Source of the DNA: an uncultured Chitinophaga sp.
GTDB taxonomy: Bacteria; Bacteroidota; Bacteroidia; NS11-12g; UBA955
Assembly: GCA_964438995.1 (NCBI GenBank)
Contig: CAYTMQ010000011.1
Coordinates: 8,416 to 72,415, forward strand
Length of the DNA: 64,000 nucleotides
Reading direction: 5' to 3'
Positions 30,190 to 49,800 of the stretch are shown here, in pieces (position 1 is the first letter of the stretch; every line of letters starts with the position of its first letter). The notes below the pieces were generated by a model. The model was given only the letters and a program-made list of their open reading frames with translations, was not told where the DNA came from and searched no databases. The position numbers were made by a program, and so were the translations under genes.

Positions 30190-30575
30190 AGGTGGATTTT
30201 TTCTTGAGGAGAGAGAGGGATTATTATATGATCCCATTATGGGTAGGCTACAATTCAAAGGATAATCCAAATTGAAATCAATTTGGATTTTATGACTCTA
30301 ACTTATCACTTGAACCCTTGCGGGATTCAGATGAAAGTTTGAGCCATAAAAAAAGTCCAAGCTTTAGCTTGGACTATCATTTGAATTGCGGAGAGAGAGG
30401 GATTGGCTTCGCCGGTCTCGCCAAAACAGCCAATGTATTTCTTCCAATTAGTTTTTCACAATTGGCTGTTTTGGACTCGGCTCGAACCCCGGGGGTTCTC
30501 ATCCCTTTCTCTCTCCTATGCAAAAAAAAATCCAAGCATTAAGCTTGGATTTTTTCTTGCGGAGAGAGAGGGACA
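30190..30575. repeat. Complex repeat region upstream of the integrase: three degenerate ~175 bp tandem units. Each unit has an A-run/hairpin/T-run (tccaa..ttgga stems) and a GGAGAGAGAGGGA motif. Unit 2 forms a ~130 bp palindrome. Candidate attL with arm-type sites, or a MITE-like insertion.
   Basis: GGAGAGAGAGGGA direct at 30208-30220, 30390-30402, 30561-30573 and inverted at 30502-30516. Hairpins at 30262-30285, 30352-30383, 30530-30550. Perfect 12 bp inverted repeat AAAACAGCCAAT / ATTGGCTGTTTT at 30421-30432 and 30461-30472. The ORFs 30318..30542 and 30403..30600 are spurious. Confidence 0.5.
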
Positions 30576-30657
30576 CTCCGCTATACTCATATTTAATTGA
30601 TTTACAGACATTTATTTTATATAGTGTCATTTCAGTGCCAAATATTATATTTGTCCT

Positions 30658-31791
30658 ATGAAAAATTATCGGCTTTGTAAAATTTACAAGGGTGCTAAAA
30701 AAGGTATGCGCCCAACTCTAAACAATTGGTATGTTTACTACTACTTCTTTGATGGTGTCGAATGGAAACGATTCAGACTGAAAGAAGACATCAATACTGC
30801 TAAAACAATCACTGAAAGAACCCACAGAGCAAATGCGCTCAAAGAAGCAATGGATGAATTATTAATGGCCGGTTATAATCCGTTTAGGGATGACAATCGA
30901 ATAATCTTAAAGCAGTTTACCATGAAAGAAGGGATTGATTGGGCAATGTCAAGAAAGAAATTTGCGCACAAAACTCAACTTGATTTTAATTCAATTGTTA
31001 AGCACTTTCATGAAACTTCAGCAAAACTTGGTTATGGTAGTTTAGAATTAAAGAAAGTTACCAGGATAATTATTAGAGAGATCATTGAAAAAATGGTTGA
31101 ATCTAGAAATTTAGGTAATCATGCTTATTTGAAGTACAAAAACAATCTGGGCAATCTATTTGAAGAGCTTGTAAGTTGGGAGAAAATTGATTTTAATCCA
31201 TGTAGGTTTAAGACTACCATCAGAAAACCGAAGCCAAAGACAAAGATTCTATTAAGTGAGGACCAAAGAATGCTGATAAAAAATACTTTGCTTGAAAAAA
31301 ATCCAAACTTTTTCAATTATCTGATGTTTATTAATCTGACTGCATTAAGGCCAGTTGAAATACTTCGCTTAAAAGTCGAGGATATTGATTTAAAGAATTC
31401 TCGAATTATTATAAGGTCAGAAATCACAAAAGATAGCGAAGATAGGATAACCATCATTCCAAAAGCATTAGAACCTTATATCGATATTGATGCGCCAAAG
31501 CACTATTACTTATTTGGCCACGATTTTAAACCTCAAGAACGTAAAAAACCATTGTCTAGAGATAAGGCCACCCACTTATGGCAAGAATTAATCATTAAAG
31601 GACTAGGCATTGATTCTAAAATGTACTGGCTGAAACATCTCGGTTTAACTTCTATGAGACAACAAGGTATTGATCCCGAAATTGTTCAGTACCATGCAGG
31701 GCATTCTACCTATGAAATGACACAAGTTTACGTTTCAAGTGATAGGCCAGAAGTAGTAAAAGCAATTCGAGAAAGAAAAGGGGATTTCTAG
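30658..31791 (+). CDS. Tyrosine-type site-specific integrase (phage integrase family)
   Basis: C-terminal catalytic region with R...HxxR-like LGLTSMRQQG and YHAGHSTYEMTQVY (catalytic Tyr). N-terminal SAM-like DNA-binding part. A Bacteroidetes -7 promoter motif TAtaTTTG lies at 30646-30653. Confidence 0.85.
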   Translation: MKNYRLCKIYKGAKKGMRPTLNNWYVYYYFFDGVEWKRFRLKEDINTAKTITERTHRANALKEAMDELLMAGYNPFRDDNRIILKQFTMKEGIDWAMSRKKFAHKTQLDFNSIVKHFHETSAKLGYGSLELKKVTRIIIREIIEKMVESRNLGNHAYLKYKNNLGNLFEELVSWEKIDFNPCRFKTTIRKPKPKTKILLSEDQRMLIKNTLLEKNPNFFNYLMFINLTALRPVEILRLKVEDIDLKNSRIIIRSEITKDSEDRITIIPKALEPYIDIDAPKHYYLFGHDFKPQERKKPLSRDKATHLWQELIIKGLGIDSKMYWLKHLGLTSMRQQGIDPEIVQYHAGHSTYEMTQVYVSSDRPEVVKAIRERKGDF

Positions 31792-31912
31792 GTAAAGCAA
31801 AATGGACCATAAAATATGGTCCATTCTAACATGAAAAATTACCAACTTGTGTCAATAGTGAATACAAACATAGTTGATAGATTTTTAATTTAATTGCCAA
31901 TTTTATGACACT

Positions 31913-31950
31913 AAAAAAAGCCTATCAAATTAATGATAGGCTTTTAATTT
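31913..31950. terminator. Bidirectional intrinsic terminator-like hairpin (A-run, GCCTATCA-loop-TGATAGGC, T-run) between int and the tRNA
   Basis: aaaaaaagcctatcaaattaatgataggcttttaatttt read directly. Confidence 0.5.
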
Positions 31951-32133
31951 TGACCTACAAGGATTGGTCGGTTTCGTTGTTCTTTTAGGAGATGTTATCA
32001 TTAGTATCGCCCTTTGTAGTTTTCCATTGGCTAACCTTGCATTTACCACATCGAATCAATATTGAGAGGGACGCACAATATAGATTACAGCACTAACCAC
32101 TAATTAAACATTTTGTTCTCCACTTCAAATGTG

Positions 32134-32209
32134 TGGTTGCGAATATCGGACTCGAACCGATGAACTTCTGGTTATGAGCCAGACGAGATACCAACTTCTC
32201 TAATTCGCA
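32134..32209 (-). tRNA. tRNA with CAU anticodon (elongator tRNA-Met, or tRNA-Ile2 if lysidine-modified), 76 nt with encoded CCA
   Basis: Hand-folded cloverleaf: acceptor TGCGAAT/ATTCGCA 7 bp, D-arm GAGA-AGTTGGTA-TCTC, anticodon arm TCTGG-CTCATAA-CCAGA, variable AGTTC, T-arm ATCGG-TTCGAGT-CCGAT, discriminator A, CCA. U1-A72 is paired, so it is not an initiator. Confidence 0.85.
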
Positions 32210-32270
32210 CTACAAATATAAAAAAATGCGAGATTATTTCCAAACCTCGCTTTTTAAACATCAACAATTA

Positions 32271-34391
32271 CTATATCCCACTTATCTCAAAATATTGTAA
32301 AGCTCCACTATGTTCACAATTGTTCCAGAAGTAATACTTGCCATTAACAAATACAACTCCGCCACCATTGGCGTTTCCTGCTGCTTCTTCGCCTGCAATG
32401 GTATTCCAATTGGTTTTACCTCCTCTAAATAGAAGTTTTCCAGTTTGATCATATACAAAGAATAAATTTGTCTGACCTCCTGCACCCCCAAAGAACTCTC
32501 CAATGTACTTAACGAAAACTTTGCCTTTGCATGTCCAAACATTGTCAGCTCCTGCATACTGCATTATTTCGGATGTAGCAAAGAAGTCACCATCTGGATA
32601 AACTCTGCTTTCTCCAACTGCCTTGCTAGGCATTCCATTGTAAATGAATTTACCACTAACAACAAAAGTCAAATGGTATCCTTGATGAGATTTATGTGGC
32701 TGAAACGCAACCAAAGTATCTCCCATCATAGAGAATGTTACCGCTTTGTCAGTAGCGAATGCAGTTGTATTATCTGGTTTAAATTGACTATGCACTACCT
32801 CATTTTTAAACAAGGTGTACTGAAAGTCTTTAAGGGCATCAGAGTAATCTAAACTCAATCTCCAAACAACACCTTTGGTATCAATGTGAAGATTGGCATT
32901 CACTGGATATTCCTTAACTAACTCTGCTTTAGTGGTTAATTTAAAGAGTGTTGGGTATTCATAACCACCTAAGAACTTATTGATTGTGCAATATGTGACA
33001 CCATTAACAGTGACTAAATTTCTCAAAAGGTTTTTACCTTGATTGTATGGCTTAAACTCCTTTGGTAATCCATACGCCCAATTTTTTACAAGTGTATAAG
33101 ACTTGTTTTTGTAGTCATATTTGAACTCTAAAAATCCTGCTGTAACTCTGCTTGGGTCATTCCTATCAACAGAGCATGAATAGGTCATAGGTAAATAATG
33201 GATGTCGTATAAATAAACCCCATTGCTATCGTACACCAATACTCTGCAATTACCATTGTCGCAAACATAGATACGATTAGATTTGTCGATGTAAACACTG
33301 CCAATGTTCTCGTGCGTGTTGTAATCCTCCGAAAAGAAGGTATAATTATCAACTAATGCGCTTGACTGACCTTTACAAATAACTTTGCCGTTATAGGTAA
33401 CATCATTTGCCATTACAACACTACTAGCGCCCCTTGTAAAACTTATTTGAGGTGTGAATGTTGAAGTGCTTAAAAATTTACCATTTAAGTCGTATTTAGA
33501 AAGTGTTTTATCAGTATGGTAAAGGTTTATAGTCCCATTTACAACTTCAATCTTTGTAGGTCGTTTATTTGGATTGCTTTTATAAATACCAATTACTGAT
33601 TTGTAAGGATTGCTTTTATCTTGGTATGTGCACCTGGTTGATACACCACTTGAAAAAATTACTTCATTGTCTGACTTGTCAATAGCGATGACCATACAAT
33701 CTAAATTTGAAGAGTATCCACCATCATCATCTGTTGCAAAAGGATCATATCCTGCCCAAAATAAATAATTGTCAGTTTCAGCGAATGCAGTCACTTCCAT
33801 TACAAAGCCATTTGCAGGTGGTGGCATCACTTCATTTCGTTCCTTTGGATTGTTTATTGGAGATTTAATGACTGGACTTTTACCTTCTGGATAACCAACG
33901 GACATATAAAGGAATCCATTAAATTCTGCTACACATCTAATCGAGCGCAAACCTTTGAATTTCTTTGCACCATAATGCAACCCACTCGAATTATAGACAT
34001 TCCCAGTCCAATTATAGGAAGGTGTTGTAGGAAGTGGATTTGTAGGAATATTAATTATTCTCGGACCAACATAAACAACTGCTTCTTTTAATCCGCATTC
34101 CAATGTTTCATAAATAATCCATCTGTCCAAATAATCAGACTTGCTTGGTTGTAGAGTACCAGTTCCATCACTTTTAAACAATACTTTCCCAATACCACTT
34201 ATTGTTGTAGGAGTTATGGTAGTGGTTGCAGAAGTAGTACGCCTTACACAACTGATGTAGTGAAAGGATACCTTTTTTTTAAGGTTGAAAGTAACCTTGT
34301 TGGTGCCGTTGGTAAATATCGAATCTTGACAATGTAAACTAAAAGGCAAGATAGTTGCTATTATAGCAAAGATGTAAACTAATTTTTTCAT
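32271..34391 (-). CDS. Secreted NHL-repeat / beta-propeller protein (706 aa), a prophage cargo gene ('moron') candidate
   Basis: Signal peptide MKKLVYIFAIIATILPFSLHCQ. NHL-like repeats (IYVCDNGNCRVLVYDSNGVYLYD). Lies between the endolysin and the tRNA. Overlaps the endolysin stop by 4 nt, and a hairpin terminator follows at 32221-32256. Confidence 0.55.
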   Translation of the reverse strand: MKKLVYIFAIIATILPFSLHCQDSIFTNGTNKVTFNLKKKVSFHYISCVRRTTSATTTITPTTISGIGKVLFKSDGTGTLQPSKSDYLDRWIIYETLECGLKEAVVYVGPRIINIPTNPLPTTPSYNWTGNVYNSSGLHYGAKKFKGLRSIRCVAEFNGFLYMSVGYPEGKSPVIKSPINNPKERNEVMPPPANGFVMEVTAFAETDNYLFWAGYDPFATDDDGGYSSNLDCMVIAIDKSDNEVIFSSGVSTRCTYQDKSNPYKSVIGIYKSNPNKRPTKIEVVNGTINLYHTDKTLSKYDLNGKFLSTSTFTPQISFTRGASSVVMANDVTYNGKVICKGQSSALVDNYTFFSEDYNTHENIGSVYIDKSNRIYVCDNGNCRVLVYDSNGVYLYDIHYLPMTYSCSVDRNDPSRVTAGFLEFKYDYKNKSYTLVKNWAYGLPKEFKPYNQGKNLLRNLVTVNGVTYCTINKFLGGYEYPTLFKLTTKAELVKEYPVNANLHIDTKGVVWRLSLDYSDALKDFQYTLFKNEVVHSQFKPDNTTAFATDKAVTFSMMGDTLVAFQPHKSHQGYHLTFVVSGKFIYNGMPSKAVGESRVYPDGDFFATSEIMQYAGADNVWTCKGKVFVKYIGEFFGGAGGQTNLFFVYDQTGKLLFRGGKTNWNTIAGEEAAGNANGGGVVFVNGKYYFWNNCEHSGALQYFEISGI

Positions 34392-34864
34392 AATATTGGG
34401 TATGTGCTTTTAATTTTTGGGAGTGCGTTAAGTTCTTTGGTTGTATAACCAAATGTTTTCTGAAAGTGAGGATAGTCTTTTAATGTTTTGAAGTCTCCAC
34501 CCCATTCCCAACCAAACTCTTTAAATACTTTTACCACTTCCATCCAGTCGGGTATTTTATCTCCATCGAAATCTTCACCTCTGGACCAAACTGCTTTACC
34601 ACTAAAAATAATTGTGATATCAATGGCAAGTCCATAATTGTGATATGATTCACCGGCTCTTGCATTGGTTACAATTTGTCCTGGCATTTGTCTTCCTTTT
34701 GCATACAGATCATTCTGTTCTTTAAAACTTCTGAATGTATGAGTAAATCTACAATATGCAGGACCATTTAATCTCTTGCATATTTCTTCGTAGATTTTAG
34801 TTGCTTCTTCTTGAACTGAAGGATGAAGCAAACTAATTCTTGTTAATGTTACTTGATCGCTCAT
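34388..34864 (-). CDS. Endolysin, peptidase M15 family (L-alanyl-D-glutamate / VanY-like zinc peptidase)
   Basis: Zinc-binding SYHNYGLAIDI (H-x-x-G-x-A-x-D) and downstream DYPHFQ His motif. 158 aa. Adjacent to the holin-like gene. Confidence 0.8.
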   Translation of the reverse strand: MSDQVTLTRISLLHPSVQEEATKIYEEICKRLNGPAYCRFTHTFRSFKEQNDLYAKGRQMPGQIVTNARAGESYHNYGLAIDITIIFSGKAVWSRGEDFDGDKIPDWMEVVKVFKEFGWEWGGDFKTLKDYPHFQKTFGYTTKELNALPKIKSTYPIL

Positions 34865-35106
34865 TTTTTTAAATCTTTATTTTCAACTGGAAATTTACTT
34901 GGAGCTTCTGGTGCATATCCGTAAGCATCACAAACAATCTGTATAGCGTGTCCGCCAATTGTATAGAATATCATAATTAACAACATATCGTGTTCAGATA
35001 TGCCCCAATTACCTATTAATGCGGTTGATAACCCGCTAATGCCTATATAGGCGTATAATCGTCTGAAAATAGACAACCATTTTGGTGTTTTTGTTTTTCG
35101 TGCCAT
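34861..35106 (-). CDS. Holin-like small membrane protein (two predicted TM helices)
   Basis: 81 aa. TM segments LYAYIGISGLSTALIGNWGI and MLLIMIFYTIGGHAIQIVC, charged C-terminus. Immediately upstream of the endolysin with a 4-nt overlap. Confidence 0.5.
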   Translation of the reverse strand: MARKTKTPKWLSIFRRLYAYIGISGLSTALIGNWGISEHDMLLIMIFYTIGGHAIQIVCDAYGYAPEAPSKFPVENKDLKK

Positions 35107-35399
35107 TATTTTGATTTTAAATTAAATTCGTAGAGAGCTTTAGTGTTGTCTTTGATTACCTCATTCTGCATTTGCCACATCATCTGCTGCATTGCATCAA
35201 CTTTTCGATTGAGGTTAAAATTCTGATACGTTAAGACTGCAACCCATGCAACCAGTATCATGACCGCCAATCCTTTTGCGATTATTTCTTTTAAGATTAG
35301 CTTTTTTTCGTCGCTTGTTATTCCTATCATTGCTTTATAAGTACAAATACAAATCTTTGTCCGAGCATTCGGCCACAATTCTATACCCTCTTTTATCAC
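35106..35399 (-). CDS. Small single-TM protein of the lysis cassette (possible spanin/antiholin)
   Basis: 97 aa with one TM helix (GLAVMILVAWVAVLTY). Its position is the only other support. Confidence 0.35.
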   Translation of the reverse strand: MIKEGIELWPNARTKICICTYKAMIGITSDEKKLILKEIIAKGLAVMILVAWVAVLTYQNFNLNRKVDAMQQMMWQMQNEVIKDNTKALYEFNLKSK

Positions 35400-35847
35400 A
35401 TTGATTTTTAAATTCAGTTGGTGTCATTCTATACCAATTCTCCATGTTAAGAACTCTTGCAACAAACTCATAACATGTTGGATAATTCTTACATTTGGTT
35501 TTGTTGCCTATGAAAATACCTCTACCTAATAGCCATTTAGTGAAGTACCAAATGAGCATGAATAGCAAGTCTTCAAATCCGTAACGGACTTTTTTGAATA
35601 CCATCTTGTCAAACTCCTCTTTATTAAAATTGTCATCAGAAACATCAATCACTTGACATTGATAGTCATCTGGCCATAAATAAACCAGTGTTGAGATTAC
35701 TCCCTTAAAATCTGATTCATAAACATATCTCTTGTCCGCAATAGCTACATGGTGCCATCTATCTCCAGTTACTTGTCTGATGATGTGCGATACAATTCTT
35801 AATGGTTTCTTCCATGTGAATGGCTTATATACTCTTACGATTTTCAT
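35335..35847 (-). CDS. Hypothetical phage protein, possibly a permuted papain-like (His then Cys) hydrolase
   Basis: 170 aa. RWHHVAI ... NYPTCYEFV residue order. Weak inference only. Confidence 0.35.
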   Translation of the reverse strand: MKIVRVYKPFTWKKPLRIVSHIIRQVTGDRWHHVAIADKRYVYESDFKGVISTLVYLWPDDYQCQVIDVSDDNFNKEEFDKMVFKKVRYGFEDLLFMLIWYFTKWLLGRGIFIGNKTKCKNYPTCYEFVARVLNMENWYRMTPTEFKNQCDKRGYRIVAECSDKDLYLYL

Positions 35848-36407
35848 AATTGTACTAATTCATTGTTCATTGCTTTTGTTTTCAAGTCTTCCCAAACTTT
35901 AGGCAACTCGTTTTTTACTGTTTCATGTATTGGTTTATCCTGCTCATCTCTGAATGCTTGCCATAAGATATACGCTAAATCAACAGCCAATCCCCCGTTA
36001 TAATCAGTCAATGGCACGACAAAACCACCTAATTTAAATTGTTTAGCATCCCAAAATCCAAATACATCGTATTTAGAATCAATCACAACTCCTACTCCCA
36101 TAGGTGTTGGAGGTGTTGTATCTGGTTTGGTTAAGGTTGATATTTCAATTAAAGGCAAATCTTCAAGCCATGTGAAAATACTTTTAGCCTGGTTGATTTC
36201 TTCTTCACTTATAAAGAAGTCTCCAGAAACGTCTGCTCTTGGTCCTAATAATGTTCCGTCTGGCAATTCATAAAGGTATAACTGCCTAAATTGTTCTATT
36301 GTTAATAATGCTATTCTACTCATCTTCCTAATTGTGTTTCTAATGTATCTATTGCTGCATCTAATAAAGCTACTTGACTGTCTGATGCGCCATGAAAGTG
36401 AATCCAA
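35844..36407 (-). CDS. Hypothetical phage tail-associated protein
   Basis: 187 aa ORF co-oriented with and overlapping its neighbours in the distal tail/lysis region. Confidence 0.4.
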   Translation of the reverse strand: MDSLSWRIRQSSSFIRCSNRYIRNTIRKMSRIALLTIEQFRQLYLYELPDGTLLGPRADVSGDFFISEEEINQAKSIFTWLEDLPLIEISTLTKPDTTPPTPMGVGVVIDSKYDVFGFWDAKQFKLGGFVVPLTDYNGGLAVDLAYILWQAFRDEQDKPIHETVKNELPKVWEDLKTKAMNNELVQL

Positions 36408-37168
36408 ATACTTCTCTTTCTATCACTAAATTGAATGGCAGTACCTCCGTTGTTAACCGCACCTTCAATCAATATTTTAGGTGTCGTGTTTGTAAAAGTG
36501 TTACTTGCTTGAGTAACAGTATTGAATGGAGAACCATTTTTATATTGTTTATAGTTAGCGCTTGAATTTCTACTTATAAAGTATCTTCCAGTTGAATTGG
36601 TGTTGGTGCCAGTATTATTGGTTTGATCTACTAATCTTGATGTGAAATTTGAACCATTACGAGTGTACTGAAGCACGTTAGCAAATCCACCATCAATAAC
36701 CCCGAAATCCGCTTTAACGCCTGATGTATCAGTTTTTAACACGATACCGAATGACTGCGCATTTTGTTGGAAGGTATTACCGTCATAACCGAAAATAGTG
36801 GTCATATATCCAGTTGTTCCGTTAGGTAATGAACCAGTTCCGTCATGTGTCCATCCACCAACATAAGTTCCATCTGGATTGCCAGTTACTGCATTGTATC
36901 TGTGATATGTAGCAGTTCCACCAACTCTAAAGAATGCAAACTCCGAAACAGTTCCTAAATTATCTGCTCCTAAAGTTAATCCATAAATGTCTTTTACTGC
37001 AACAATAAAGGCATCGATATACTCCCATAACTGCTGACCAGTTCTTTCTTGTGCAGAACCAGTATTATATGTAGTAGAATCGTATGCAATACCTTTGTTA
37101 GTGAACAACCTTTTTGTTTCTGGTTGCCATCTTGATTTGCTGCCGTATATGTTAATTATTCTAGTCAC
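36320..37168 (-). CDS. Tail fibre/receptor-binding-like protein (Gly/Thr/Asn-rich)
   Basis: 282 aa, low-complexity T/N/G-rich beta-rich sequence typical of distal tail fibres. Confidence 0.4.
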   Translation of the reverse strand: MTRIINIYGSKSRWQPETKRLFTNKGIAYDSTTYNTGSAQERTGQQLWEYIDAFIVAVKDIYGLTLGADNLGTVSEFAFFRVGGTATYHRYNAVTGNPDGTYVGGWTHDGTGSLPNGTTGYMTTIFGYDGNTFQQNAQSFGIVLKTDTSGVKADFGVIDGGFANVLQYTRNGSNFTSRLVDQTNNTGTNTNSTGRYFISRNSSANYKQYKNGSPFNTVTQASNTFTNTTPKILIEGAVNNGGTAIQFSDRKRSIWIHFHGASDSQVALLDAAIDTLETQLGR

Positions 37169-38378
37169 GAATTCCGTTTAATTTTACAAATCCTGCACTT
37201 GTGCTTATAGTTCTTTTTACAACGATTGTGTCTGTATCTTCCAAAACCAATGGATTGGAGAATGCAGTAAATGAACCCCCATTTTTTGACAATGTAATTG
37301 TACCACTTAAACCATCATCTTCTATTGAGGTATATGTTCCGGCACTATCAGTGTCAATCGTAAATGATTCCATCTCCAATTCATCTTGTGAGAAGTGGAA
37401 TTTTAAAATGATGGTTTTATCAATGACATACTTTGTCTCAACTGCAGTCATTGGAGTTATACCCCAGTCACCATCAATATTTCTTTTAATAATGTTGTCC
37501 TGCTTTTCTTTAAATTCATAAGTAAAATTGGACTTCTTACTCAATGAATGATTGGTTACATCTTTGATATTACTTGGATAAACATTAAATCTTCTGAATA
37601 GATGTTGATTCAGTAAATTGTAATCAGTGATGTAAATATCGTTACCCAATATTCCATCCTCATTGATCACATCAAAAATGTATGCAGGTAAAAGCTCGGT
37701 TTCAAGAGTGTAAGTATTTTCAATTTTAGATTGAATTTGCTTAACCACACGATTTGAATCTTGATAGTTATCAATTACAAGTGTTGGTGTTTTATCTCCA
37801 AACTTACCTTTGATTCGTAGTGATTGATACCATCCAAGTCCAGTGTAATCAAAACCATTCATTATTGAACCGCTTTGATACCATTCAATTCTGATGGTGC
37901 CGTCTGCTCTTTCTGCATTGTATTCAACTACATGGAATTTATGTGATTCATACACTAGTGTAGTGCCTAATGATGTATGAGTAGTTTTGATGGTGTAATA
38001 ACCATATCCAAATGCTTGTTGAACTAAATCCCAATCAATCACAAATCCTTTATAATCGCTGTTTTCAAGTGAACCGAAATCGTAAAATGTACCATAGGTG
38101 TTAGAATTTAAAACTGCTACTTGAACTCCATCTTTTAGCAAAGTGTAGACAATTGTATCGCTTGATACAACTTTGGCTCTAATGAAAGACTTTGTGTCAT
38201 TTTGCCACCATGAACCACCATTTTTCACATATGCTTCTTCGATAAAATCACAACCATTGCATGCGCAAACCTCAAAACCTGGCGATTGACTTATTGCAGA
38301 AATCAATGTTGCAGATTGTGAAGATGCTATACCTAGTAAAGGCATCGGAAAAGCATTATACCATTGTGTTGTTATCAT
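37161..38378 (-). CDS. Tail/baseplate-associated protein
   Basis: 405 aa, downstream of the Tal-like giant protein, overlapping stops and starts. Confidence 0.4.
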   Translation of the reverse strand: MITTQWYNAFPMPLLGIASSQSATLISAISQSPGFEVCACNGCDFIEEAYVKNGGSWWQNDTKSFIRAKVVSSDTIVYTLLKDGVQVAVLNSNTYGTFYDFGSLENSDYKGFVIDWDLVQQAFGYGYYTIKTTHTSLGTTLVYESHKFHVVEYNAERADGTIRIEWYQSGSIMNGFDYTGLGWYQSLRIKGKFGDKTPTLVIDNYQDSNRVVKQIQSKIENTYTLETELLPAYIFDVINEDGILGNDIYITDYNLLNQHLFRRFNVYPSNIKDVTNHSLSKKSNFTYEFKEKQDNIIKRNIDGDWGITPMTAVETKYVIDKTIILKFHFSQDELEMESFTIDTDSAGTYTSIEDDGLSGTITLSKNGGSFTAFSNPLVLEDTDTIVVKRTISTSAGFVKLNGIRD

Positions 38379-41300
38379 TTTAAAATATTTCCAGTTGTAA
38401 AGTTGAATGTTGGGTCATTTGGAGTAAATACAAACCAATCATTATTGTTTTCTCCTGACCAATCGTTAATTATAAATTTTACCCAATAAGGTTTGATGTG
38501 ACCTAGCACAAATTCATTATCTCCAACTACAAATGCATGACATTGATTCTTTCTTTGTAGTGGACTTGATGAAAATCCTAATCCTGCTTTTCCATTTAGT
38601 TTCTCAACTCCTCCATACAATAGATTAGTTGCAATCATTGGAGTTTGTATAGTCCAATCATCAGATGAATTTGGACTTGCAACAGTTGAATAAACTCTAC
38701 TAATATGCCTTGCTCCGTCAGTTCCTAATGAAACATCATGGACCACTAAAAACACTGGATTTGAATCATCATCTATTGTAAGAATCTCAAATCCAACTGC
38801 AGCTAATAAATCAGCATCATTACCTGGTCCATCTTGATTTTCTGTATCACCTGAATTTCTGTAAACGTTGTATGAATTAGTATAATTAGCGAAGTTTGCT
38901 CTATCTGCAGGAGTTGTTACGCTTCCAGACGTTTGAGAATAAACCGCAATTTTGCCTTGTTCCCATTGGTTTGAATTTGGAGGTAAATCAAGATTCATTA
39001 CATAGATATTACCACCATAGAAATTTACATCAATTGGATATCTGCATTGAGAGTTTGCAGGAGAACCACTATCATAACACTTCCAGTCTAGTGTTGTCCA
39101 AGATGCTCCGTTGTAATAAAGGTGTTTGAACCCTCTTTGACCACCAATACTAGCTTGTGAATTGCCTATCCAGAAGTATGGTTTGCCATTTACTTGTCCC
39201 ATTTCTGGGTCAATTCTTATGCATGTGTATGTACCACCACCCAAGTTTGCTGAATAGATTCTTGTTTGCAAGTATGTAGAACCATTGTAGATGAATTCAT
39301 GGACCTCTGTTGCTGAACCAGTATAAGTAATTGCATAGAAATTAGGTTTTCCATTGGTCACAACATCAGAAACTACCATTTTGAAGTTCTGATAGGTGTA
39401 TAATGCACTTAAACTAATTGCTACTTCATTATCGATAAATCCATCAACTATTTCAGCTAATCGAAGTGAATTACTTACTGCAACTCCATTATCTGGACAA
39501 TTGAATAACAATACTTCGCTTTCACTTAATGTCTTAATGTCTCTTGCAATCCCATATCTAGGATATGAAGGTGTTCTTGACAATCTTGCTGAAATATTAT
39601 AGTTGCCCGAAATTTTGGTATAATCGATTAATGATTCAGTTATTATCTCGGTGCCAGTATTAGTGATCTTGGTGTAAGTTTCACCATTTATTGGTTTCAA
39701 AGGACTGTTTTTTGCCTTATCTCTGAATGAAGAAAGCTCTATAATTCCATAGCCTGATGAAAGCAGTTTGTCAAGTCTATGAACAACCCACTCGTCAGTA
39801 AATCCACTTGAATCTCCACTTTGAGGAGTAAATGTTATTACAAGTTTGGTGTCACCAGTCTTTAATATTGCACCTCCTAAATCGTTGTCATCAATATCAA
39901 AAGTTTGAATTAATGTTGACCATTCAGCAGGGTCATTACCATCTAAATCCCATCCATAAACTTTCAGTTGCGGAGAATAGTTAACGTATTTCGTTAACTT
40001 TTCTGTCAATTGTTTTACATCTGCATCAATAGCAAGTCGAATTTCATAGTTATTGCCTTCGTACCTCGATGCATCTTTACCCAATCCGTTTGAATCTAAT
40101 GAGGTATTGTAGAAAATTGTGTCTGCACCTGGCAACTTTATCCAACTTTGCCAGTCAAATTTCATTGAAAGAATAAGCTCAACTTCTTGGTAATCTCCAA
40201 CTGGGTCTTTGAAATTTACATAAATGCTATTGAATTGGTCGCCTGATGCCAATCTAAATTCTCTTTCAACATCTAATGTCAGTTTTTGATATGTACCTAT
40301 CTCAACTATGTTTGATAAATCGAATGAATACTCTTGCAATGAGAACTCCTCACCACTTACAGTATTATATGCAATCAATCGAGCTTTTAATGCATGCAGA
40401 TTCGCATTCAAGAACTTATTAAGGACCAAAGTACATGCATAGTTGAATCCATCTTGTTTCCAACCTTTATAGTCTGAATACCCTCCATTAGAGATATCCA
40501 TACCATGGTCATAGAATCTTTGGTTATAGAAATCTACTAGTCCTGCAACATCATTATTGATAACAAATTGATTCCAATCTGCTTGTAAAATAACTTTGTT
40601 GGATGTATCGGTGGCATTGTTATTACCAACTTGTACTCCTATGAAGTATTTATCTGAAACAACATCAAGTAAATCAGGATTGATCATCTCTTGTTCGGAT
40701 GATGAAATCTCGATATCGAACTCAAAATTTACTCTTGTTGCATCAACATAGTCAAATTTCACTCTTTTTATTCTCTCTGAACCGGTAGCTGAAATTGTAC
40801 CGCTCGACATGGTTGCTAGTAAAGAATCCCACAAGAAAGTAGATTGAAAACTATCTTTGTTTGATGAGTAAACAGAAAATGGCGCACCCCACCAGAAATA
40901 AACACCTAATTGATTGGTATTTGTTAATCCAGTTCCAGTAATATATCCGCTTACTTTCGTTTTTTTACCTAATTGAAGCCTATTAACCGCATCTCCAGTT
41001 TCAGTATCGGTGTAACTGCTTAAAGTTACAGAGTAGATGTTCTCAAATCCATTGAAATTTTCGTTAATCCATCCAACTGAACCCAACATTTCTTCATCTT
41101 GAAGCCTAACAGTAGTGTTAGGATTATTCATTGCTGAACGGAATTCGAATGTGCAAACGTGTTTTACTGATTTATCTCCTTCAAACTCTTCTGGACTTGT
41201 GCCAGAATTAAGCGCATTCAAGTATGATTCCAAGAACACTGGACTAATAACGAACTCTTGAGTTATCTCGTATTCATGAACATAATTAGTCGCAATTCCT

Positions 41301-41920
41301 AATGGATTGGATGATGATTTATACTCAACTGTGGCACCGCCCGACTTCCATGATTTTGAACCACTCATATTCTTCATGGTATGGACAGTTGGGGTTGTAG
41401 TGTCTATTGTTGAATAGTAAAAGCCTTGAATATCGTTAGTGTATGGACTTCTTACATCTAAAGCTCCGTCATTTGGCACAATAGCAGAGTTGTAAAGTAA
41501 TGCAGGGAACTTCGAAGCACATACTAGCGCATGGTCAGATTTATAGCCAACAGCACCAATTGCTGAACTAAATTGAATTTCAGTATCGTTAATTGCTAAA
41601 ATAGTATCAGTCCATTCAACTGATGCAGCATTGCTAGTATTTAAACCAGTATAATCACGAATAAAAGCGCATGATTGACCAACTGCGAAGCCTTCATCAA
41701 TCCATGAACCTGATTGTCTTCTTAATACATTCCCATTAAGAACCTCAAATTGATTGGCTGTATCAGCAATTGAAATCAATGCAGCTTGAACGCGAATAAC
41801 GGCCTTTACTTTCTCTCCAATAGAACCTTTTAGATGTGTTCCAAAATCGCTTGTATTGGATGAGAATGAAGTACCATTACCCCACTCGGAGAAATATTTT
41901 CTAGTTAATACTTGTATCAT
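38375..41920 (-). CDS. Large tail tip protein (Tal-like, tail-associated), 1181 aa
   Basis: Its position (third gene after the tape measure protein) and size match siphovirus Tal/tip proteins. No enzymatic motif was identified by eye. Confidence 0.5.
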   Translation of the reverse strand: MIQVLTRKYFSEWGNGTSFSSNTSDFGTHLKGSIGEKVKAVIRVQAALISIADTANQFEVLNGNVLRRQSGSWIDEGFAVGQSCAFIRDYTGLNTSNAASVEWTDTILAINDTEIQFSSAIGAVGYKSDHALVCASKFPALLYNSAIVPNDGALDVRSPYTNDIQGFYYSTIDTTTPTVHTMKNMSGSKSWKSGGATVEYKSSSNPLGIATNYVHEYEITQEFVISPVFLESYLNALNSGTSPEEFEGDKSVKHVCTFEFRSAMNNPNTTVRLQDEEMLGSVGWINENFNGFENIYSVTLSSYTDTETGDAVNRLQLGKKTKVSGYITGTGLTNTNQLGVYFWWGAPFSVYSSNKDSFQSTFLWDSLLATMSSGTISATGSERIKRVKFDYVDATRVNFEFDIEISSSEQEMINPDLLDVVSDKYFIGVQVGNNNATDTSNKVILQADWNQFVINNDVAGLVDFYNQRFYDHGMDISNGGYSDYKGWKQDGFNYACTLVLNKFLNANLHALKARLIAYNTVSGEEFSLQEYSFDLSNIVEIGTYQKLTLDVEREFRLASGDQFNSIYVNFKDPVGDYQEVELILSMKFDWQSWIKLPGADTIFYNTSLDSNGLGKDASRYEGNNYEIRLAIDADVKQLTEKLTKYVNYSPQLKVYGWDLDGNDPAEWSTLIQTFDIDDNDLGGAILKTGDTKLVITFTPQSGDSSGFTDEWVVHRLDKLLSSGYGIIELSSFRDKAKNSPLKPINGETYTKITNTGTEIITESLIDYTKISGNYNISARLSRTPSYPRYGIARDIKTLSESEVLLFNCPDNGVAVSNSLRLAEIVDGFIDNEVAISLSALYTYQNFKMVVSDVVTNGKPNFYAITYTGSATEVHEFIYNGSTYLQTRIYSANLGGGTYTCIRIDPEMGQVNGKPYFWIGNSQASIGGQRGFKHLYYNGASWTTLDWKCYDSGSPANSQCRYPIDVNFYGGNIYVMNLDLPPNSNQWEQGKIAVYSQTSGSVTTPADRANFANYTNSYNVYRNSGDTENQDGPGNDADLLAAVGFEILTIDDDSNPVFLVVHDVSLGTDGARHISRVYSTVASPNSSDDWTIQTPMIATNLLYGGVEKLNGKAGLGFSSSPLQRKNQCHAFVVGDNEFVLGHIKPYWVKFIINDWSGENNNDWFVFTPNDPTFNFTTGNILK

Positions 41921-42089
41921 TGAGTTTCTTAATTGTGGCCATTATTTTATCCATATCTGCATCAGCAATTGACTTTTCAATGTTGTCAATTTCATTCAAT
42001 ATCAATTCTCTGTTTGGACTAGATAAACTTTTTGCGCTTTTTCTAGTTTCATCGAGTTGTGTTTTTATCATTTTTGCAAAATCTTCCAT
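41901..42089 (-). CDS. Small hypothetical phage protein (62 aa)
   Basis: ORF between the Dit-like and Tal-like genes. It overlaps the Tal start by 20 nt and could alternatively be a misplaced start region. Confidence 0.25.
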   Translation of the reverse strand: MEDFAKMIKTQLDETRKSAKSLSSPNRELILNEIDNIEKSIADADMDKIMATIKKLNDTSIN

Positions 42090-43867
42090 TAGTTCTCTAT
42101 GATTGTTTCAGTAAAATTATCAGTGTATTTTTCGAATATCTTATACGATACAATCGCATAGTCATCACTCATTTTCCAGTTAAGTTTTAAGAATTGGCCA
42201 TCTTTACCATCAGATGTTTTGAAGTAAGATGACTTATTGGTTTTCAAGTAATCCAAAAAGGAGAATGGTATTTTTACATTCTCATAAACTCTTGCTTGTG
42301 TATATTCTGGATTGGTTTTGAAGGACCTCCAATAATGGTAATTGTTGTAAAGTGCTTTAGCCGACATCAAATCTCTATGGTTTTGAGGTATCAATCCGTT
42401 TTGTAGCACAATCAATTTAGGTATATTGAAAGAGTTTTGAGATATGATCAATCGGCCTTTACCTTCATTGATTTTTTCAGCAAATGTTTTACCTCCAAAC
42501 AATTTAATTACCAAATCAACTAGAGAGGTTAAAACCTTTAAAGTTTGTTCAGCAACGCTTAAATTATTTCTTCTATTACCAAGCGACATTGGTATTCTTA
42601 CCTCTTCAAAATTCTTCAGCAAATCAAATTGAGGGTCTTCTTCAAGTCTGTTAGCAACTCTAGTGATTACCTCATAACTAACACCTCGCTCATATCTATC
42701 TTTCTCTTCATCCTTTTTCTTTGAATCAAATGGAGTATTTCTTGCATTTGGCATTGTGTACTCATCAGATGGATCATATTGAAACGTCAGCAAGAAATTT
42801 GCTTTCATTTCATTAGTATTTAAAGTGTATTCTTCTGCAAGTACATCTGGTAGAACAAATGTGCTTAAATCTCTGATATTCTTTTCCGCTTTGATTATCA
42901 GTTTTTTTGCGCCTAAATCATTTGTTTGCATCACTGGTTTCGCTCTAAATAACTTTAGAACCAATTCAAACATTTCAGATACTTGATATCCGTAATCAGA
43001 TGAATTTGGAATGCCCTCATCTTTGCGATTCTTTCTTATTTTATCATCAACTTTTGACGGCAAGTAAACGCAATAATCAAGCTCTGGGATATCAGATTCT
43101 AGTGGAATATTGTAGTAATCCAATGCTCTTTCAAGTGCTGTTCTTAATTTAATACCCTTGTAAATTGTTGGTTTTGGGAATAAATTGTCAAATAATGTTT
43201 TAGTCAATCTTATAATTGCCACAAGCATTGCAGCATAGTAGGCAATGATTAACAGAGAATAAGCCAACATCTTAAAAAATTCAGCAGGCTTTTGAAGTGG
43301 AGCTGACAATGCAGTTACTATTGCATCTATTTTCTTTTGAGTAAATGTTTTAGAGAATTCAGTTACTTGTTGAGTTATTAGAAAAATTGAAATAGCTGCC
43401 ATTGCAGTTTCAGTGGTATCAAATTTCTTTCTAATGACAACTGGAACATCTGTATAATGCTCTTGGTCAATAAATCCTTTTGGACCACTTTGTTCTGCTA
43501 AAAATCCATAAGAAATTGCTTTAAGTTGTGAATCAATTAAATCTAATCCCTCATCAGGTTTGATTTTAACAGCAATCTCTACTGGACTGATTACTCTTAA
43601 TCCATCACATAAATCAAGTTTACAATTCCATATCTTATATTCACCTTTTGATGAAATGCCTATTGTGAACAATATCGCTTGGAATGGACCATATAATTCA
43701 ATGAAATCAAAAATGATTTTTGCTTCACGATTTACGAAAACAAACTCATCAACATCTAATTCTGGTTGAACATCATTACCAAATGAGGATTCAAATTTAA
43801 TGTCCATCCAGTTTTTAGGAGGGTCACATTGAATGCGATTTAATTCAAAGTATAATTCGTACTTCAT
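42089..43867 (-). CDS. Distal tail protein (Dit-like), 592 aa
   Basis: Immediately downstream of the tape measure gene with a 4-nt overlap, the canonical Dit position. Confidence 0.45.
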   Translation of the reverse strand: MKYELYFELNRIQCDPPKNWMDIKFESSFGNDVQPELDVDEFVFVNREAKIIFDFIELYGPFQAILFTIGISSKGEYKIWNCKLDLCDGLRVISPVEIAVKIKPDEGLDLIDSQLKAISYGFLAEQSGPKGFIDQEHYTDVPVVIRKKFDTTETAMAAISIFLITQQVTEFSKTFTQKKIDAIVTALSAPLQKPAEFFKMLAYSLLIIAYYAAMLVAIIRLTKTLFDNLFPKPTIYKGIKLRTALERALDYYNIPLESDIPELDYCVYLPSKVDDKIRKNRKDEGIPNSSDYGYQVSEMFELVLKLFRAKPVMQTNDLGAKKLIIKAEKNIRDLSTFVLPDVLAEEYTLNTNEMKANFLLTFQYDPSDEYTMPNARNTPFDSKKKDEEKDRYERGVSYEVITRVANRLEEDPQFDLLKNFEEVRIPMSLGNRRNNLSVAEQTLKVLTSLVDLVIKLFGGKTFAEKINEGKGRLIISQNSFNIPKLIVLQNGLIPQNHRDLMSAKALYNNYHYWRSFKTNPEYTQARVYENVKIPFSFLDYLKTNKSSYFKTSDGKDGQFLKLNWKMSDDYAIVSYKIFEKYTDNFTETIIEN

Positions 43868-46215: not shown

Positions 46216-46771
46216 TTATGTATGAATAAAATTCAAGGACAGTCACTTCTTTTGGATTGATTCTGTATCCTTGAGATTTTGATATTTTCGCAATTATTTT
46301 GTTGTATTCAGTTTGTTTTAGTTCTCCTTTTTTCTCTAGTTTTTTCAGTTCTATTTCTAAATGTGTAAGATTTATTGATGATGATTCTATTGCACATTCC
46401 AATTTTAAAAATGCAATGCGTTTAGTCATGTTCAGAAAGTCCAAGTATTCTTTATTTAGGCCAATGCGCTCTATAAACTCATCATATATCATGTCATAGA
46501 TGATAACTATTACCCTATCCTCTAAAAATGCGTAGACTATGCCTAATAATGAGAAAACTACCCCTAACCATACATTGACATAAAACATAGGTATTAAGGA
46601 TAGATAATAAATTGCTGCTATAGCTAATCTATTCCTGGTCAATTGTTTCTTATCATTAGTTCTATGAAGTTCAAACCAATTACCAATTGGCAAGGTTGAA
46701 ATACTCATATAGTATTTAAGACTTAATATACTTTTTAAGATTCGATATGAGCTTTGTTTTAACTTCATCAA
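46208..46771 (-). CDS. Membrane protein encoded between the tail chaperone and TMP. Either a moron (HK97 gp15-like superinfection exclusion candidate) or the +1-frame T extension of a G/GT chaperone pair.
   Basis: Two clear TM helices (LAIAAIYYLSLIPMFYVNVWLGVVFSLLGIVYAFL). Overlaps the upstream ORF by 56 nt in the +1 frame. An alternative start MSIS at 46708 avoids the overlap. Confidence 0.4.
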   Translation of the reverse strand: MMKLKQSSYRILKSILSLKYYMSISTLPIGNWFELHRTNDKKQLTRNRLAIAAIYYLSLIPMFYVNVWLGVVFSLLGIVYAFLEDRVIVIIYDMIYDEFIERIGLNKEYLDFLNMTKRIAFLKLECAIESSSINLTHLEIELKKLEKKGELKQTEYNKIIAKISKSQGYRINPKEVTVLEFYSYING

Positions 46772-47183
46772 TTAACCATTGTGTGTTTTGTCTATTTAAT
46801 CCGATTACATGACCGCCCCATTCAGTGTTGATGTCTTTACCATCTTTAATTGGATTGGCAACAATCATGATGTAATCCGCTCCAATTGGTGCAACTACTT
46901 TAAATGAATCGTAGAATGCTCCAGTTTGCTTTAGAGTTACTCTATCATAAGGAAGTCCATTAGGTATTTTGTAAAATTCAATCGTGTAGAATGAATAATC
47001 TCCTCCGACATCACTTAACCTTCTACCTAATTTATCTTCGCCTTTTTCAAATAACTGATCTTGAGTATTGAGATAGATAATTTGCTCTTGAATCTCCGTA
47101 CTACGCAATATGTCCTGAATCATCTCTGATTGGTTAATCTTTGACAATCGCAGGACCTTATTGCGCAATCGGGTAAGTGGCAT
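46716..47183 (-). CDS. Tail assembly chaperone candidate (G-like)
   Basis: 155 aa acidic protein directly upstream of TMP-region genes. Its start overlaps the preceding small ORF stop (TAATG). Confidence 0.4.
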   Translation of the reverse strand: MPLTRLRNKVLRLSKINQSEMIQDILRSTEIQEQIIYLNTQDQLFEKGEDKLGRRLSDVGGDYSFYTIEFYKIPNGLPYDRVTLKQTGAFYDSFKVVAPIGADYIMIVANPIKDGKDINTEWGGHVIGLNRQNTQWLIDEVKTKLISNLKKYIKS

Positions 47184-47353
47184 TACTGCTTCTTGCTCTT
47201 TTTAGAACCTTCAGCAGCGCCCACTTCTTTTTCAATGGACTCCCAAAGTGTTTTTAGGTCCCCATTGAATTTGCCTTTCATGGCTTCAAAGAATTTATCT
47301 TTGCCCATTTTATAGGCTTCGTGTGCGTTTCCGCTAAAATTACCTACTCTCAT
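47183..47353 (-). CDS. Small Lys-rich ORF (56 aa) not in the supplied track, between the major tail and chaperone genes
   Basis: Hand translation MRVGNFSGNAHEAYKMGKDKFFEAMKGKFNGDLKTLWESIEKEVGAAEGSKKSKKQ. Start 3 nt after the major-tail stop, stop overlapping the next ATG. Confidence 0.3.
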   Translation of the reverse strand: MRVGNFSGNAHEAYKMGKDKFFEAMKGKFNGDLKTLWESIEKEVGAAEGSKKSKKQ

Positions 47354-47355
47354 AC

Positions 47356-49796: not shown

Positions 49797-49800
49797 GGGT

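What the first reader, a model, noticed from the sequence alone, without database searches (positions are those of the whole stretch)
30658..34864. Non-canonical junction: integrase (+), tRNA-CAU (-) with its 3' end facing int, then directly the lysis cassette. The tRNA may be phage-borne rather than the integration target.
Phages that integrate at a tRNA regenerate the tRNA 3' end with prophage DNA lying downstream of that 3' end. Here the 3' end of the tRNA points left toward int, while the ≥30 kb of phage genes lie on its 5' side. Int and the lysis genes, which should sit at opposite ends of a prophage integrated at a site between them, are adjacent. The simplest reading is that attL is the repeat region left of int. 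On that reading the tRNA (which could be a lysidine-type tRNA-Ile2 or elongator Met) is a phage cargo gene, flanked by two bidirectional terminators, and attP in the free phage lies between int and the early region. A tandem/composite island at a tRNA hotspot is the alternative.
Basis: inference. Interest (0 to 1): 0.5.

Follow-up and report, generated by a model that had tools for sequence, protein, structure and literature searches.

The report
Prophage carrying its own initiator-like tRNA
This is an ordinary 43-kb temperate phage of a Bacteroidota bacterium, inserted at a serine tRNA gene that lies beyond the window; the methionine tRNA next to its integrase is phage cargo, not the insertion site, and its only unusual feature is that it looks like a modified "start" (initiator) tRNA of a type seen in many other phages.

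Summary
The order is int (30658-31791, +), tRNA-CAU (32134-32209, -), a 706-aa secreted protein, then the M15 endolysin. About 30 kb of late and early phage genes follow on the minus strand.

- attL is a 17-bp core (30557-30573) identical to the 3' end of a tRNA-Ser.
- Logan contigs that are 100% identical to the window extend it. They show the same core inside a tRNA-Ser 3' end about 43.1 kb to the right (attR), with phage DNA downstream of that tRNA.
- Seven contigs with 38-61% identical integrases run uninterrupted: repressor module, tRNA-Ser-like core, int, then lysis and tail genes.
- So attP lies just upstream of int, and the int-lysis adjacency is the native phage order.
- None of the seven carries a tRNA, and the tRNA-Met 3' end is not repeated anywhere. 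It is variable cargo.

The tRNA is neither Ile2-like nor elongator-like. It is initiator-like (G2C3G4, A11:U24, G30:C40, G31:C39), but it has U1:A72 and U29:A41. This variant recurs in 56 viral contigs.

Verdict: a new member of a known kind, of low interest. The phage-type initiator-like tRNA is a modest side lead.

The parts
30206..30220 (.). Relic att-core copy 1 (GAGGAGAGAGAGGGA, 1 mismatch). It has the same 14-nt left flank as the true attL.
30386..30515 (-). Relic att-core copy 2 (30388-30402), forming one end of a 127-nt near-perfect hairpin. The hairpin begins GGAGAGAGAAAGGGA and ends TCCCTCTCTCTCCGCAA. Its function is unknown.
   Evidence: no Rfam match
30557..30573 (-). attL core TTGCGGAGAGAGAGGGA, the reverse complement of the tRNA-Ser 3' end TCCCTCTCTCTCCGCAA. 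It is identical to the core at attR (Logan contig L002, positions 15-31).
30574..30657 (+). int-proximal arm of attP (P' arm) with GTGTCA/GTGCCAAA arm-type repeats. It aligns with the same stretch in relatives.
30658..31791 (+). Tyrosine integrase, 377 aa, full length compared with homologues.
31916..31945 (.). Terminator-like hairpin between int and the tRNA, with an A-run before it and a T-run after it.
32134..32209 (-). Phage-borne tRNA with a CAU anticodon, of initiator-like type. It has U1:A72, G2C3G4, A11:U24, U29:A41, G30:C40, G31:C39, A73 and an encoded CCA.
32213..32220 (-). TATATTTG, 3 nt upstream of tRNA position 1. It fits the Bacteroidota -7 promoter box TAnnTTTG, with a TTTG 21 nt further upstream. 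This is an inferred promoter, not a tested one.
   Evidence: Sequence; a weak sigma-70-type match at the same place; the consensus is quoted from my own knowledge.
32228..32250 (-). Terminator-like hairpin ending the late operon, just upstream of the tRNA.
32271..34391 (-). Last gene of the late operon: a 706-aa protein with an N-terminal signal peptide and an NHL repeat. Counterparts of similar length (727 and at least 716 aa) sit in the same position in relatives L088 and L092; homology was not tested.
34388..34864 (-). Endolysin (Peptidase_M15_4 / VanY).
34861..35330 (-). Two small proteins (81 aa and 74 aa), each with one strongly hydrophobic segment. They are holin or spanin candidates.
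35335..64000 (-). Rest of the prophage inside the window: tail genes, tape measure, major capsid (50232-51638), protease, portal, TerL (53764-55065), TerS (55383-55877) and early genes including a DnaC-like loader. The prophage continues to about 73,700 in window-equivalent coordinates.

Best explanation
A 43.1-kb temperate tailed phage is integrated at the 3' end of a host tRNA-Ser gene, probably Ser-UGA. That gene lies on the minus strand about 9.7 kb beyond the right edge of the window.

Integration. The phage tyrosine integrase recombines an attP site about 85 nt upstream of its own gene with the tRNA. The shared core is 17 bp (TCCCTCTCTCTCCGCAA). It covers the 3' strand of the T-stem, the acceptor stem, the discriminator base and 3 nt beyond. 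The tRNA-Ser is therefore rebuilt at attR, and the displaced 3' fragment with the host terminator is left at attL (30557-30573).

Gene order. In the free phage the order is: early genes, S24 repressor and small ORFs, attP, int, then (convergent) lysis, tail, head and packaging genes. Cutting this circle at attP puts int at the tRNA-distal end of the prophage, directly next to the end of the late operon.

The tRNA. The tRNA-CAU occupies the variable cargo slot between the late-operon terminator and int. It has its own putative promoter and a downstream terminator. It derives from an initiator tRNA but has a U1:A72 pair instead of the C1xA72 mismatch, and U29:A41 instead of the first of the three G:C pairs.

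What is shown and what is inferred. Shown: the att cores, the prophage continuity, the conserved attP position, the absence of the tRNA in relatives, and the sequence features of the tRNA. Inferred: that the tRNA supplies methionine or formyl-methionine for phage translation, most likely at initiation; that it is expressed from the TAnnTTTG box; and that integration uncouples int from transcription of the repressor module.
For: Integration site and prophage boundaries
- The core occurs 3 times left of int against 0 expected by chance.
- Logan contigs L001 and L002 are 100% identical to the window over 4201 and 1269 nt of overlap.
- L002 starts with GTCCGGGGGTTCGAATCCCTCTCTCTCCGCAA, followed by phage DNA, a terminator hairpin, small ORFs and an S24 repressor.
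- One 44,862-nt Logan contig runs from the host MBL-fold gene to that tRNA.
- All 76 complete tRNAs in IMG/VR that end in this 24-mer are tRNA-Ser. The 3 that contain the 30-mer are Ser-UGA.

Position of attP
- Seven contigs with 38-61% identical integrases have uninterrupted phage DNA on both sides of a tRNA-Ser-like core 50-95 nt upstream of int. In each, int is convergent with the lysis and tail genes.
- A reconstructed attP (attR phage side + core + attL phage side) aligns colinearly with these contigs, including the arm-type repeats.

The tRNA as cargo
- None of the seven relatives has a tRNA.
- The 3' 23 nt of the tRNA-Met has no second copy in the window or at the far end of the prophage, even allowing 3 mismatches.

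tRNA type
- The best E. coli match is metY, the initiator gene upstream of rimP-nusA-infB.
- Identity is 87% to the tRNA-Met of crAss-like phage cr125_1, 73-75% to canonical initiators, and 65-68% to elongator/Ile2-type CAU tRNAs.
- G2:C71, C3:G70 and A11:U24 are formylation determinants (PMC7949028).
- The same variant occurs in 56 IMG/VR contigs and only 81 of 241 million metagenome records.
- In 12 loci it sits beside a separate elongator-type CAU tRNA, and about half of the members have a U1xU72 mismatch.
Against: - The 5' two-thirds of the target tRNA-Ser and the host DNA beyond it were never seen, because all contigs break at the tRNA.
- No empty attB site was found in relatives or metagenomes.
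- The related contigs are metagenome assemblies, not isolated phages.
- The tRNA lacks two hallmark initiator features: the 1x72 mismatch and the full set of three G:C pairs. It could therefore act as an elongator, or not be used as an initiator at all.
- No isotype-specific covariance model (tRNAscan-SE) could be run.
- The promoter assignment is a consensus match only.
Confidence: 0.88

Rival explanations
1. Composite island. The integrase belongs to a separate, degenerate element sitting at a tRNA-Ser hotspot. The phage to its right is a different element that has lost, or never had, this integrase.
For: - There are three att-core copies at about 175-nt spacing left of int, two of them relics.
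- The tRNA-Ser 3' end is a common attachment sequence: 44 tRNA-less copies occur in IMG/VR contigs.
Against: - In seven related contigs the homologous integrase lies in the same place, between the repressor module (with its core) and the lysis/tail genes of a matching phage.
- The core-to-int distance is 84 nt here and 84-88 nt in the closest relatives.
- No other integrase was identified in the phage region: none among the window ORFs screened or the Pfam marks on the genes called in L001/L002.
Confidence: 0.04
2. The tRNA-CAU is the integration target (attB) of this phage or of an int-bearing element, arranged unconventionally.
For: The tRNA lies next to an integrase.
Against: - Its 3' segment is not repeated anywhere in the window or at the far end of the prophage.
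- The phage lies on its 5' side.
- The att core is of tRNA-Ser type, here and in the relatives.
- Relatives keep the int-lysis junction without any tRNA.
Confidence: 0.01
3. The cargo tRNA works as an elongator tRNA-Met, or as a lysidine-modified tRNA-Ile2, rather than in initiation.
For: - The U1:A72 Watson-Crick pair removes the mismatch that keeps initiators off EF-Tu. A single C1-to-U change was reported to let the E. coli initiator elongate in vitro (Seong and RajBhandary 1987, quoted from memory).
- Only 2 of the 3 G:C pairs are present, and substitutions in these pairs impair initiation in E. coli (PMC3017606).
Against: - The D-arm (A11:U24), G2C3G4 and overall similarity are of initiator type. 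The elongator/Ile2-type CAU tRNAs at hand are only 65-68% identical and have Y11:R24.
- In 12 viral or metagenomic loci this variant co-occurs with a separate elongator-type CAU tRNA.
- About half of the class has a U1xU72 mismatch.
Confidence: 0.2
4. tRNA-dependent lysogeny. Integration destroys the host tRNA, and the phage tRNA replaces it.
For: The phage is temperate, integrates at a tRNA gene and carries one tRNA gene. The phenomenon is described in PMC10865867.
Against: - The 17-bp core reaches past the tRNA 3' end, and the 30 nt visible at attR match intact tRNA-Ser genes exactly.
- The cargo tRNA reads AUG, not a serine codon, so it is a different isotype.
Confidence: 0.01

Closest known systems
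Temperate phages and islands that integrate into tRNA 3' ends through tyrosine integrases (for example P4, P22, HP1, mycobacteriophage L5)
   Same: - The att core equals the 3' part of a tRNA gene.
- The tRNA is rebuilt at one junction, with prophage DNA downstream of it.
- attP lies next to int.
- The phage supplies a terminator after the rebuilt tRNA.
   Different: - int ends up at the junction far from the intact tRNA.
- attP lies between the repressor module and int rather than between int and the late genes, so int and the lysis genes stay adjacent in the prophage.
- One relative (L088) has the core in the opposite orientation.
Phage-encoded tRNA cargo genes (for example in T4, T5, lambdoid 933W, crAss-like phages, mycobacteriophages)
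   Same: A single tRNA gene sits in an accessory slot of a phage genome with its own terminator. Its closest relative is the tRNA-Met of crAss-like phage cr125_1 (87% identity).
   Different: Here it is the only tRNA of a small temperate phage, and it lies in the int-late junction, where relatives carry small unrelated ORFs.
Bacterial initiator tRNA-fMet
   Same: CAU anticodon, CUCAUAA loop, G2:C71, C3:G70, G4:C69, A11:U24, G30:C40, G31:C39 and A73. The D-loop and T-loop are identical to a Bacteroidota (Chryseotalea) initiator.
   Different: U1:A72 Watson-Crick pair instead of a 1x72 mismatch, U29:A41 instead of G29:C41, and A13:U22 in the D-stem.
tRNA-dependent lysogeny (Guerrero-Bustamante and Hatfull 2024, PMC10865867)
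   Same: A temperate phage with a tyrosine integrase, an attB site in a tRNA gene and a phage tRNA gene.
   Different: The host tRNA is reconstructed, and the phage tRNA is of a different isotype.

Membership tests
tRNA-integrating tyrosine-integrase prophage | Encodes a tyrosine recombinase. | tested here: met
   PF00589 with E 7e-17 and phrog_1 with E 5e-33. The protein is full length compared with 7 homologues.
tRNA-integrating tyrosine-integrase prophage | Identical direct repeats (the core) at both prophage ends that match a tRNA 3' end. | tested here: met
   The 17-bp core is at 30557-30573 and at L002 15-31. The 24-mer around it occurs only in tRNA-Ser genes.
tRNA-integrating tyrosine-integrase prophage | An intact tRNA at one junction, with prophage DNA downstream of its 3' end. 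| tested here: inconclusive
   Only the last 30 nt of the tRNA are on the contigs. They match tRNA-Ser(UGA) genes exactly, and phage DNA follows. The 5' part was not seen.
tRNA-integrating tyrosine-integrase prophage | The unintegrated form carries the core (attP) next to int. | tested here: met
   This holds in 7 of 7 related contigs.
tRNA-integrating tyrosine-integrase prophage | An empty attB site in genomes without the prophage. | tested here: inconclusive
   No close host relative is in the genome collection (best 66% identity, no synteny). There were no exact attB or attR matches in JGI metagenomes, and the short Logan contigs break in the repeats.
Bacterial initiator tRNA-fMet | Mismatch at positions 1x72. 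| tested here: not met
   The tRNA has a U1:A72 Watson-Crick pair. About half of the same phage class has U1xU72.
Bacterial initiator tRNA-fMet | Three consecutive G:C pairs at 29:41, 30:40 and 31:39. | tested here: not met
   U29:A41, G30:C40 and G31:C39, so two of the three are present.
Bacterial initiator tRNA-fMet | G2:C71, C3:G70 and A11:U24, the formylation determinants (PMC7949028). | tested here: met
   All three are present.
tRNA-Ile2 (lysidine, CAU) | Isotype-specific sequence signature and TilS recognition. | not testable with these tools
   tRNAscan-SE isotype models are not available here. Indirectly, identity to elongator/Ile2-type CAU tRNAs is only 65-68%, and the D-arm is of initiator type.
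tRNA-dependent lysogeny | A short core, so that the host tRNA is not rebuilt. | tested here: not met
   The 17-bp core spans the whole 3' end, and the attR junction matches intact tRNA-Ser genes.
tRNA-dependent lysogeny | [quoted passage not shown] | tested here: not met
   The phage tRNA has a CAU anticodon and the target is tRNA-Ser.

The most novel reading that the evidence does not exclude
The cargo tRNA belongs to a phage- and mobile-element-specific family of variant initiator tRNAs. Members have U1 pairing with A72 or mismatching U72, A13:U22, and U29:A41 replacing the first of the otherwise near-universal three G:C pairs.

- The family occurs in at least 56 IMG/VR contigs, from small temperate phages to crAss-like and jumbo phages.
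- It is almost absent from bulk metagenome contigs.
- The one chromosome-sized hit lies between a tRNA-Thr gene and a serine recombinase.

Such tRNAs might let phages initiate translation when the host initiator is cleaved or depleted (for example by VapC-type nucleases). They might also relax IF3 proofreading, or serve in both initiation and elongation.
Probability: 0.25. Interest if true: 0.55.

Novelty: new member of a known kind. Interest (0 to 1): 0.25.

Why it matters
For annotation, a tRNA next to an integrase is not necessarily the attachment site. Here the real att site is a 17-bp tRNA-Ser fragment that no tRNA finder reports, and the true target lies 43 kb away. The locus also gives a well-defined attP/attL/attR set for an uncultured family of Bacteroidota temperate phages. 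The only point of wider interest is the tRNA itself. If the U1 / U29:A41 initiator-like tRNAs really are phage-specific initiators, they would be a natural exception to the three-G:C rule. They would also be a candidate counter-measure against host attack on initiator tRNA.

Tried and rejected
- Close relatives in IMG/VR: none found for the integrase or for the 706-aa protein. The exact 39-mer of the tRNA also gave no match.
- GenBank phages: only short hits to the endolysin and the tRNA.
- Empty site, attempt 1: a genome-collection scan with the neighbouring MBL-fold protein found at best 66% identity, with no tRNA in synteny.
- Empty site, attempt 2: an exact degenerate attB/attR 39-mer in JGI metagenomes gave 0 hits.
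- Empty site, attempt 3: Logan contigs carrying the MBL gene either contain the prophage or break inside the att repeats at 30490 and 30520.
- The NCBI contig of 116,772 nt that holds the identical integrase could not be fetched.
- Rfam gave nothing for the 30040-30660 repeat region or for the 127-nt hairpin. The hairpin is unique in the window and in all loci. The interiors of the three approximately 175-nt units are not detectably homologous, at about 50% identity.
- tRNA-dependent lysogeny was considered and rejected.
- The tRNA-Met as an att site was rejected.
- A literature search for natural U1:A72 initiators found nothing specific.

Full report
**1. What is in the window**

ARAGORN and Rfam find one tRNA in the 64 kb: tRNA-CAU at 32134-32209 on the minus strand, scoring 67 bits.

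To its left, on the plus strand, is a 377-aa tyrosine integrase at 30658-31791 (PF00589 and phrog_1).

To its right, all on the minus strand, lie these genes:
- a 706-aa protein with a signal peptide and an NHL repeat (32271-34391);
- an M15 endolysin (34388-34864);
- two small membrane proteins;
- tail genes and a tape-measure-like protein;
- major capsid, protease, portal, TerL and TerS;
- early genes up to the window edge.

Left of about 30040 the genes are chromosomal: an MBL-fold hydrolase, a TonB-dependent receptor, HipBA and an RND efflux pump. The closest genomes are Bacteroidota/Saprospiraceae MAGs, at only 66% identity.

The one caveat is that the gene touching the tRNA is not itself a lysis gene.

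**2. The real attachment site**

Between the host MBL gene and int there are three copies of GCGGAGAGAGAGGGA, at 30206 (one mismatch), 30388 and 30559. None is expected by chance. Read on the minus strand, this is TCCCTCTCTCTCCGC, the 3' end of a tRNA, and each copy is followed by a terminator hairpin.

Exact-protein look-ups returned Logan contigs that overlap the window at 100% identity (4201/4201 and 1269/1269 nt). These contigs extend the window by 9.7 kb. The extension carries:
- RecT, an SMC-like ATPase, NinB and HNH genes;
- a divergent S24 repressor followed by three small ORFs;
- at its very end, GTCCGGGGGTTCGAATCCCTCTCTCTCCGCAA.

One Logan contig of 44,862 nt runs from the MBL gene to exactly that point.

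The two ends share a 17-bp identity block, TCCCTCTCTCTCCGCAA. A scan of IMG/VR for the 24-mer around it returned more than 120 contigs. All 76 complete tRNAs containing it are tRNA-Ser, and the 3 that contain the 30-mer seen here are tRNA-Ser(UGA). A further 44 copies are tRNA-less fragments, that is att-type copies.

The conclusions are:
- The prophage spans 43.1 kb, from 30574 to about 73,685 in window-equivalent coordinates.
- Its target is a tRNA-Ser on the minus strand, outside the window.
- Prophage DNA lies downstream of that tRNA's 3' end, as the classical rule requires.
- The phage supplies a terminator hairpin 43 nt after the rebuilt tRNA.

**3. Where attP lies, and whether int belongs to the phage**

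The integrase has no close relative in IMG/VR. A protein search found homologues at 38-61% identity. I fetched seven of their contigs: L088, L089, L090, L091, L092, L278 and L279.

In the five long contigs (L088, L089, L090, L278, L279) the DNA is uninterrupted phage sequence in this order:
- early genes (minus strand);
- S24 or HTH repressor and small ORFs (plus strand);
- a gap;
- int (plus strand);
- lysis and tail genes (minus strand).

The two short contigs (L091, L092) show the central part of this order, with small ORFs, the gap and int, then minus-strand ORFs.

Each gap contains a tRNA-Ser-3'-end-like core 50-95 nt upstream of int:

| Contig | Core sequence |
|---|---|
| L089 | GCGGAGAGAGAGGGATT |
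| L091, L092 | GCGGAGAAAGAGGGA |
| L090, L279 | GCGGAGAGTGAGAGA |
| L278 | GCGGAGAGGGAGGGA |
| L088 | TTCGAATCCCTAGCTCTCCGCA (opposite orientation) |

I joined the phage side of attR, the core and the phage side of attL into a reconstructed attP. It aligns colinearly with these gaps, including repeated GTGCCAAA / GGGTCAAAA motifs on both arms that look like arm-type integrase sites. The distance from core to int start is 84 nt for core 3 and 84-88 nt in the closest relatives. Core 3 is therefore the working attL, and cores 1 and 2 are relics on the host side.

It also shows that int is an integral part of this phage lineage. The int-lysis adjacency is simply the native gene order, kept intact because the circle is cut on the other side of int.

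**4. The tRNA is cargo**

- None of the seven related contigs has any tRNA gene.
- In the relatives, the slot between int and the late operon holds nothing (L089) or small unrelated ORFs (L088, L090, L092).
- The 3' 23 nt of the tRNA has no second copy in the window or in the far-end contig, even with 3 mismatches.
- No other long direct repeat brackets the phage.
- The tRNA lies between a terminator-like hairpin that ends the late operon (32228-32250) and another at 31916-31945.
- TATATTTG, 3 nt upstream of tRNA position 1, fits the Bacteroidota -7 promoter box TAnnTTTG, with a TTTG 21 nt further upstream. The consensus is from my own knowledge, so this is an inference.

**5. What kind of CAU tRNA it is**

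The cloverleaf reads: UGCGAAU-UA-GAGA-AGUUGGUA-UCUC-G-UCUGG-CUCAUAA-CCAGA-AGUUC-AUCGG-UUCGAGU-CCGAU-AUUCGCA-A-CCA.

Against all complete E. coli genomes, the best Met-type matches are the four initiator genes. The hit I inspected is metY, upstream of rimP-nusA-infB.

Pairwise identities:

| Compared with | Identity |
|---|---|
| tRNA-Met of crAss-like phage cr125_1 | 87% |
| Xanthomonas phage Elanor tRNA | 79% |
| Canonical initiators (E. coli, Chryseotalea, two phages) | 73-75% |
| Elongator/Ile2-type CAU tRNAs | 65-68% |

The tRNA has G2:C71, C3:G70 and A11:U24, which are formylation determinants (PMC7949028). It also has G30:C40, G31:C39 and A73.

It lacks two hallmark features. Positions 1:72 form a U:A pair rather than a mismatch, and 29:41 is U:A rather than G:C. 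The three G:C pairs are described as conserved in all domains of life, barring a few mycoplasmas (PMC3017606). I therefore do not file it as a canonical initiator. It is initiator-derived.

A strict pattern for this variant matched 56 IMG/VR contigs, but only 81 of 241 million metagenome records. Several of those records are the same viral contigs. The single chromosome-sized hit lies between a tRNA-Thr gene and a serine recombinase, which is a mobile-element context. In 12 loci the variant sits beside a separate elongator-type CAU tRNA. About half of the members have a U1xU72 mismatch. Both points favour an initiation role for the class.

Ile2 or elongator function for this particular tRNA cannot be excluded without isotype models or experiments.

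**6. Known systems considered**

[quoted passage not shown] Both conditions fail here.

The idea that phage tRNAs replace host tRNAs attacked by anticodon nucleases (PMC10264068) is a possible rationale for a phage initiator. That paper reports that phages generally avoid encoding tRNA-fMet where VapC cuts in the anticodon. Nothing in this window tests the idea.

**7. Verdict**

This is a normal tRNA-Ser-integrating temperate phage with a single cargo tRNA. Its 'non-canonical' label and its guess at the tRNA type are not.

Remaining gaps:
- the body of the tRNA-Ser and an empty attB site were not seen;
- the function of the tRNA is inferred only.

Noticed in passing
window 30386-30515 (minus strand): A 127-nt near-perfect hairpin (MFE -57 kcal/mol). 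Its two ends are the two strands of a tRNA-Ser acceptor/T-stem (GGAGAGAGAAAGGGA ... TCCCTCTCTCTCCGCAA). It lies between two terminator hairpins, is unique in the window and in all fetched loci, and has no Rfam match. It could be a relic of an older att recombination, a small inserted element, or a small RNA.
   Followed up: partly
L088 9903-9924 (relative with a 58% identical integrase): The tRNA-Ser-like attP core is on the same strand as int. In the window and the six other relatives it is on the opposite strand. This predicts the opposite prophage orientation relative to the tRNA within one integrase family.
   Followed up: no
window 32271-34391 (-); L088 13196-15379; L092 4232-6382: The last gene of the late operon, after the endolysin, encodes a protein of about 710 aa with a signal peptide and an NHL repeat. 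It has no PHROG match. Genes of similar length sit in the same position in some relatives (homology not tested). It could be a secreted lysogenic-conversion or host-recognition protein.
   Followed up: no
IMG/VR loci L222-L277; metagenome loci L280-L359: Initiator-like CAU tRNAs with U1, A13:U22 and U29:A41 recur in viral contigs of 5-365 kb, often inside tRNA arrays and sometimes next to suppressor-type (CUA) tRNAs. They are rare in bulk metagenome contigs.
   Followed up: partly
L287 7678-9694 (2.8-Mb metagenome contig): The only chromosome-sized contig with this tRNA variant has it between a tRNA-Thr gene and a resolvase-type serine recombinase, next to flagellar genes. This is probably another integrated element.
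   Followed up: partly
window 23913-25582 (-): A HipA kinase with an HTH (HipB-like) partner sits in the host DNA about 5 kb left of the prophage. It is a toxin-antitoxin pair.
   Followed up: no
window 61547-61596 and 61989-62038: A 50-nt direct repeat (82% identity) lies at two gene boundaries in the phage early region. It may be a repeated regulatory site.
   Followed up: no
L001 5819-7394 (window-equivalent about 64,470-66,040): Three consecutive HNH/NUMOD4 homing-endonuclease-like genes lie in the early region of the prophage, just outside the window.
   Followed up: no
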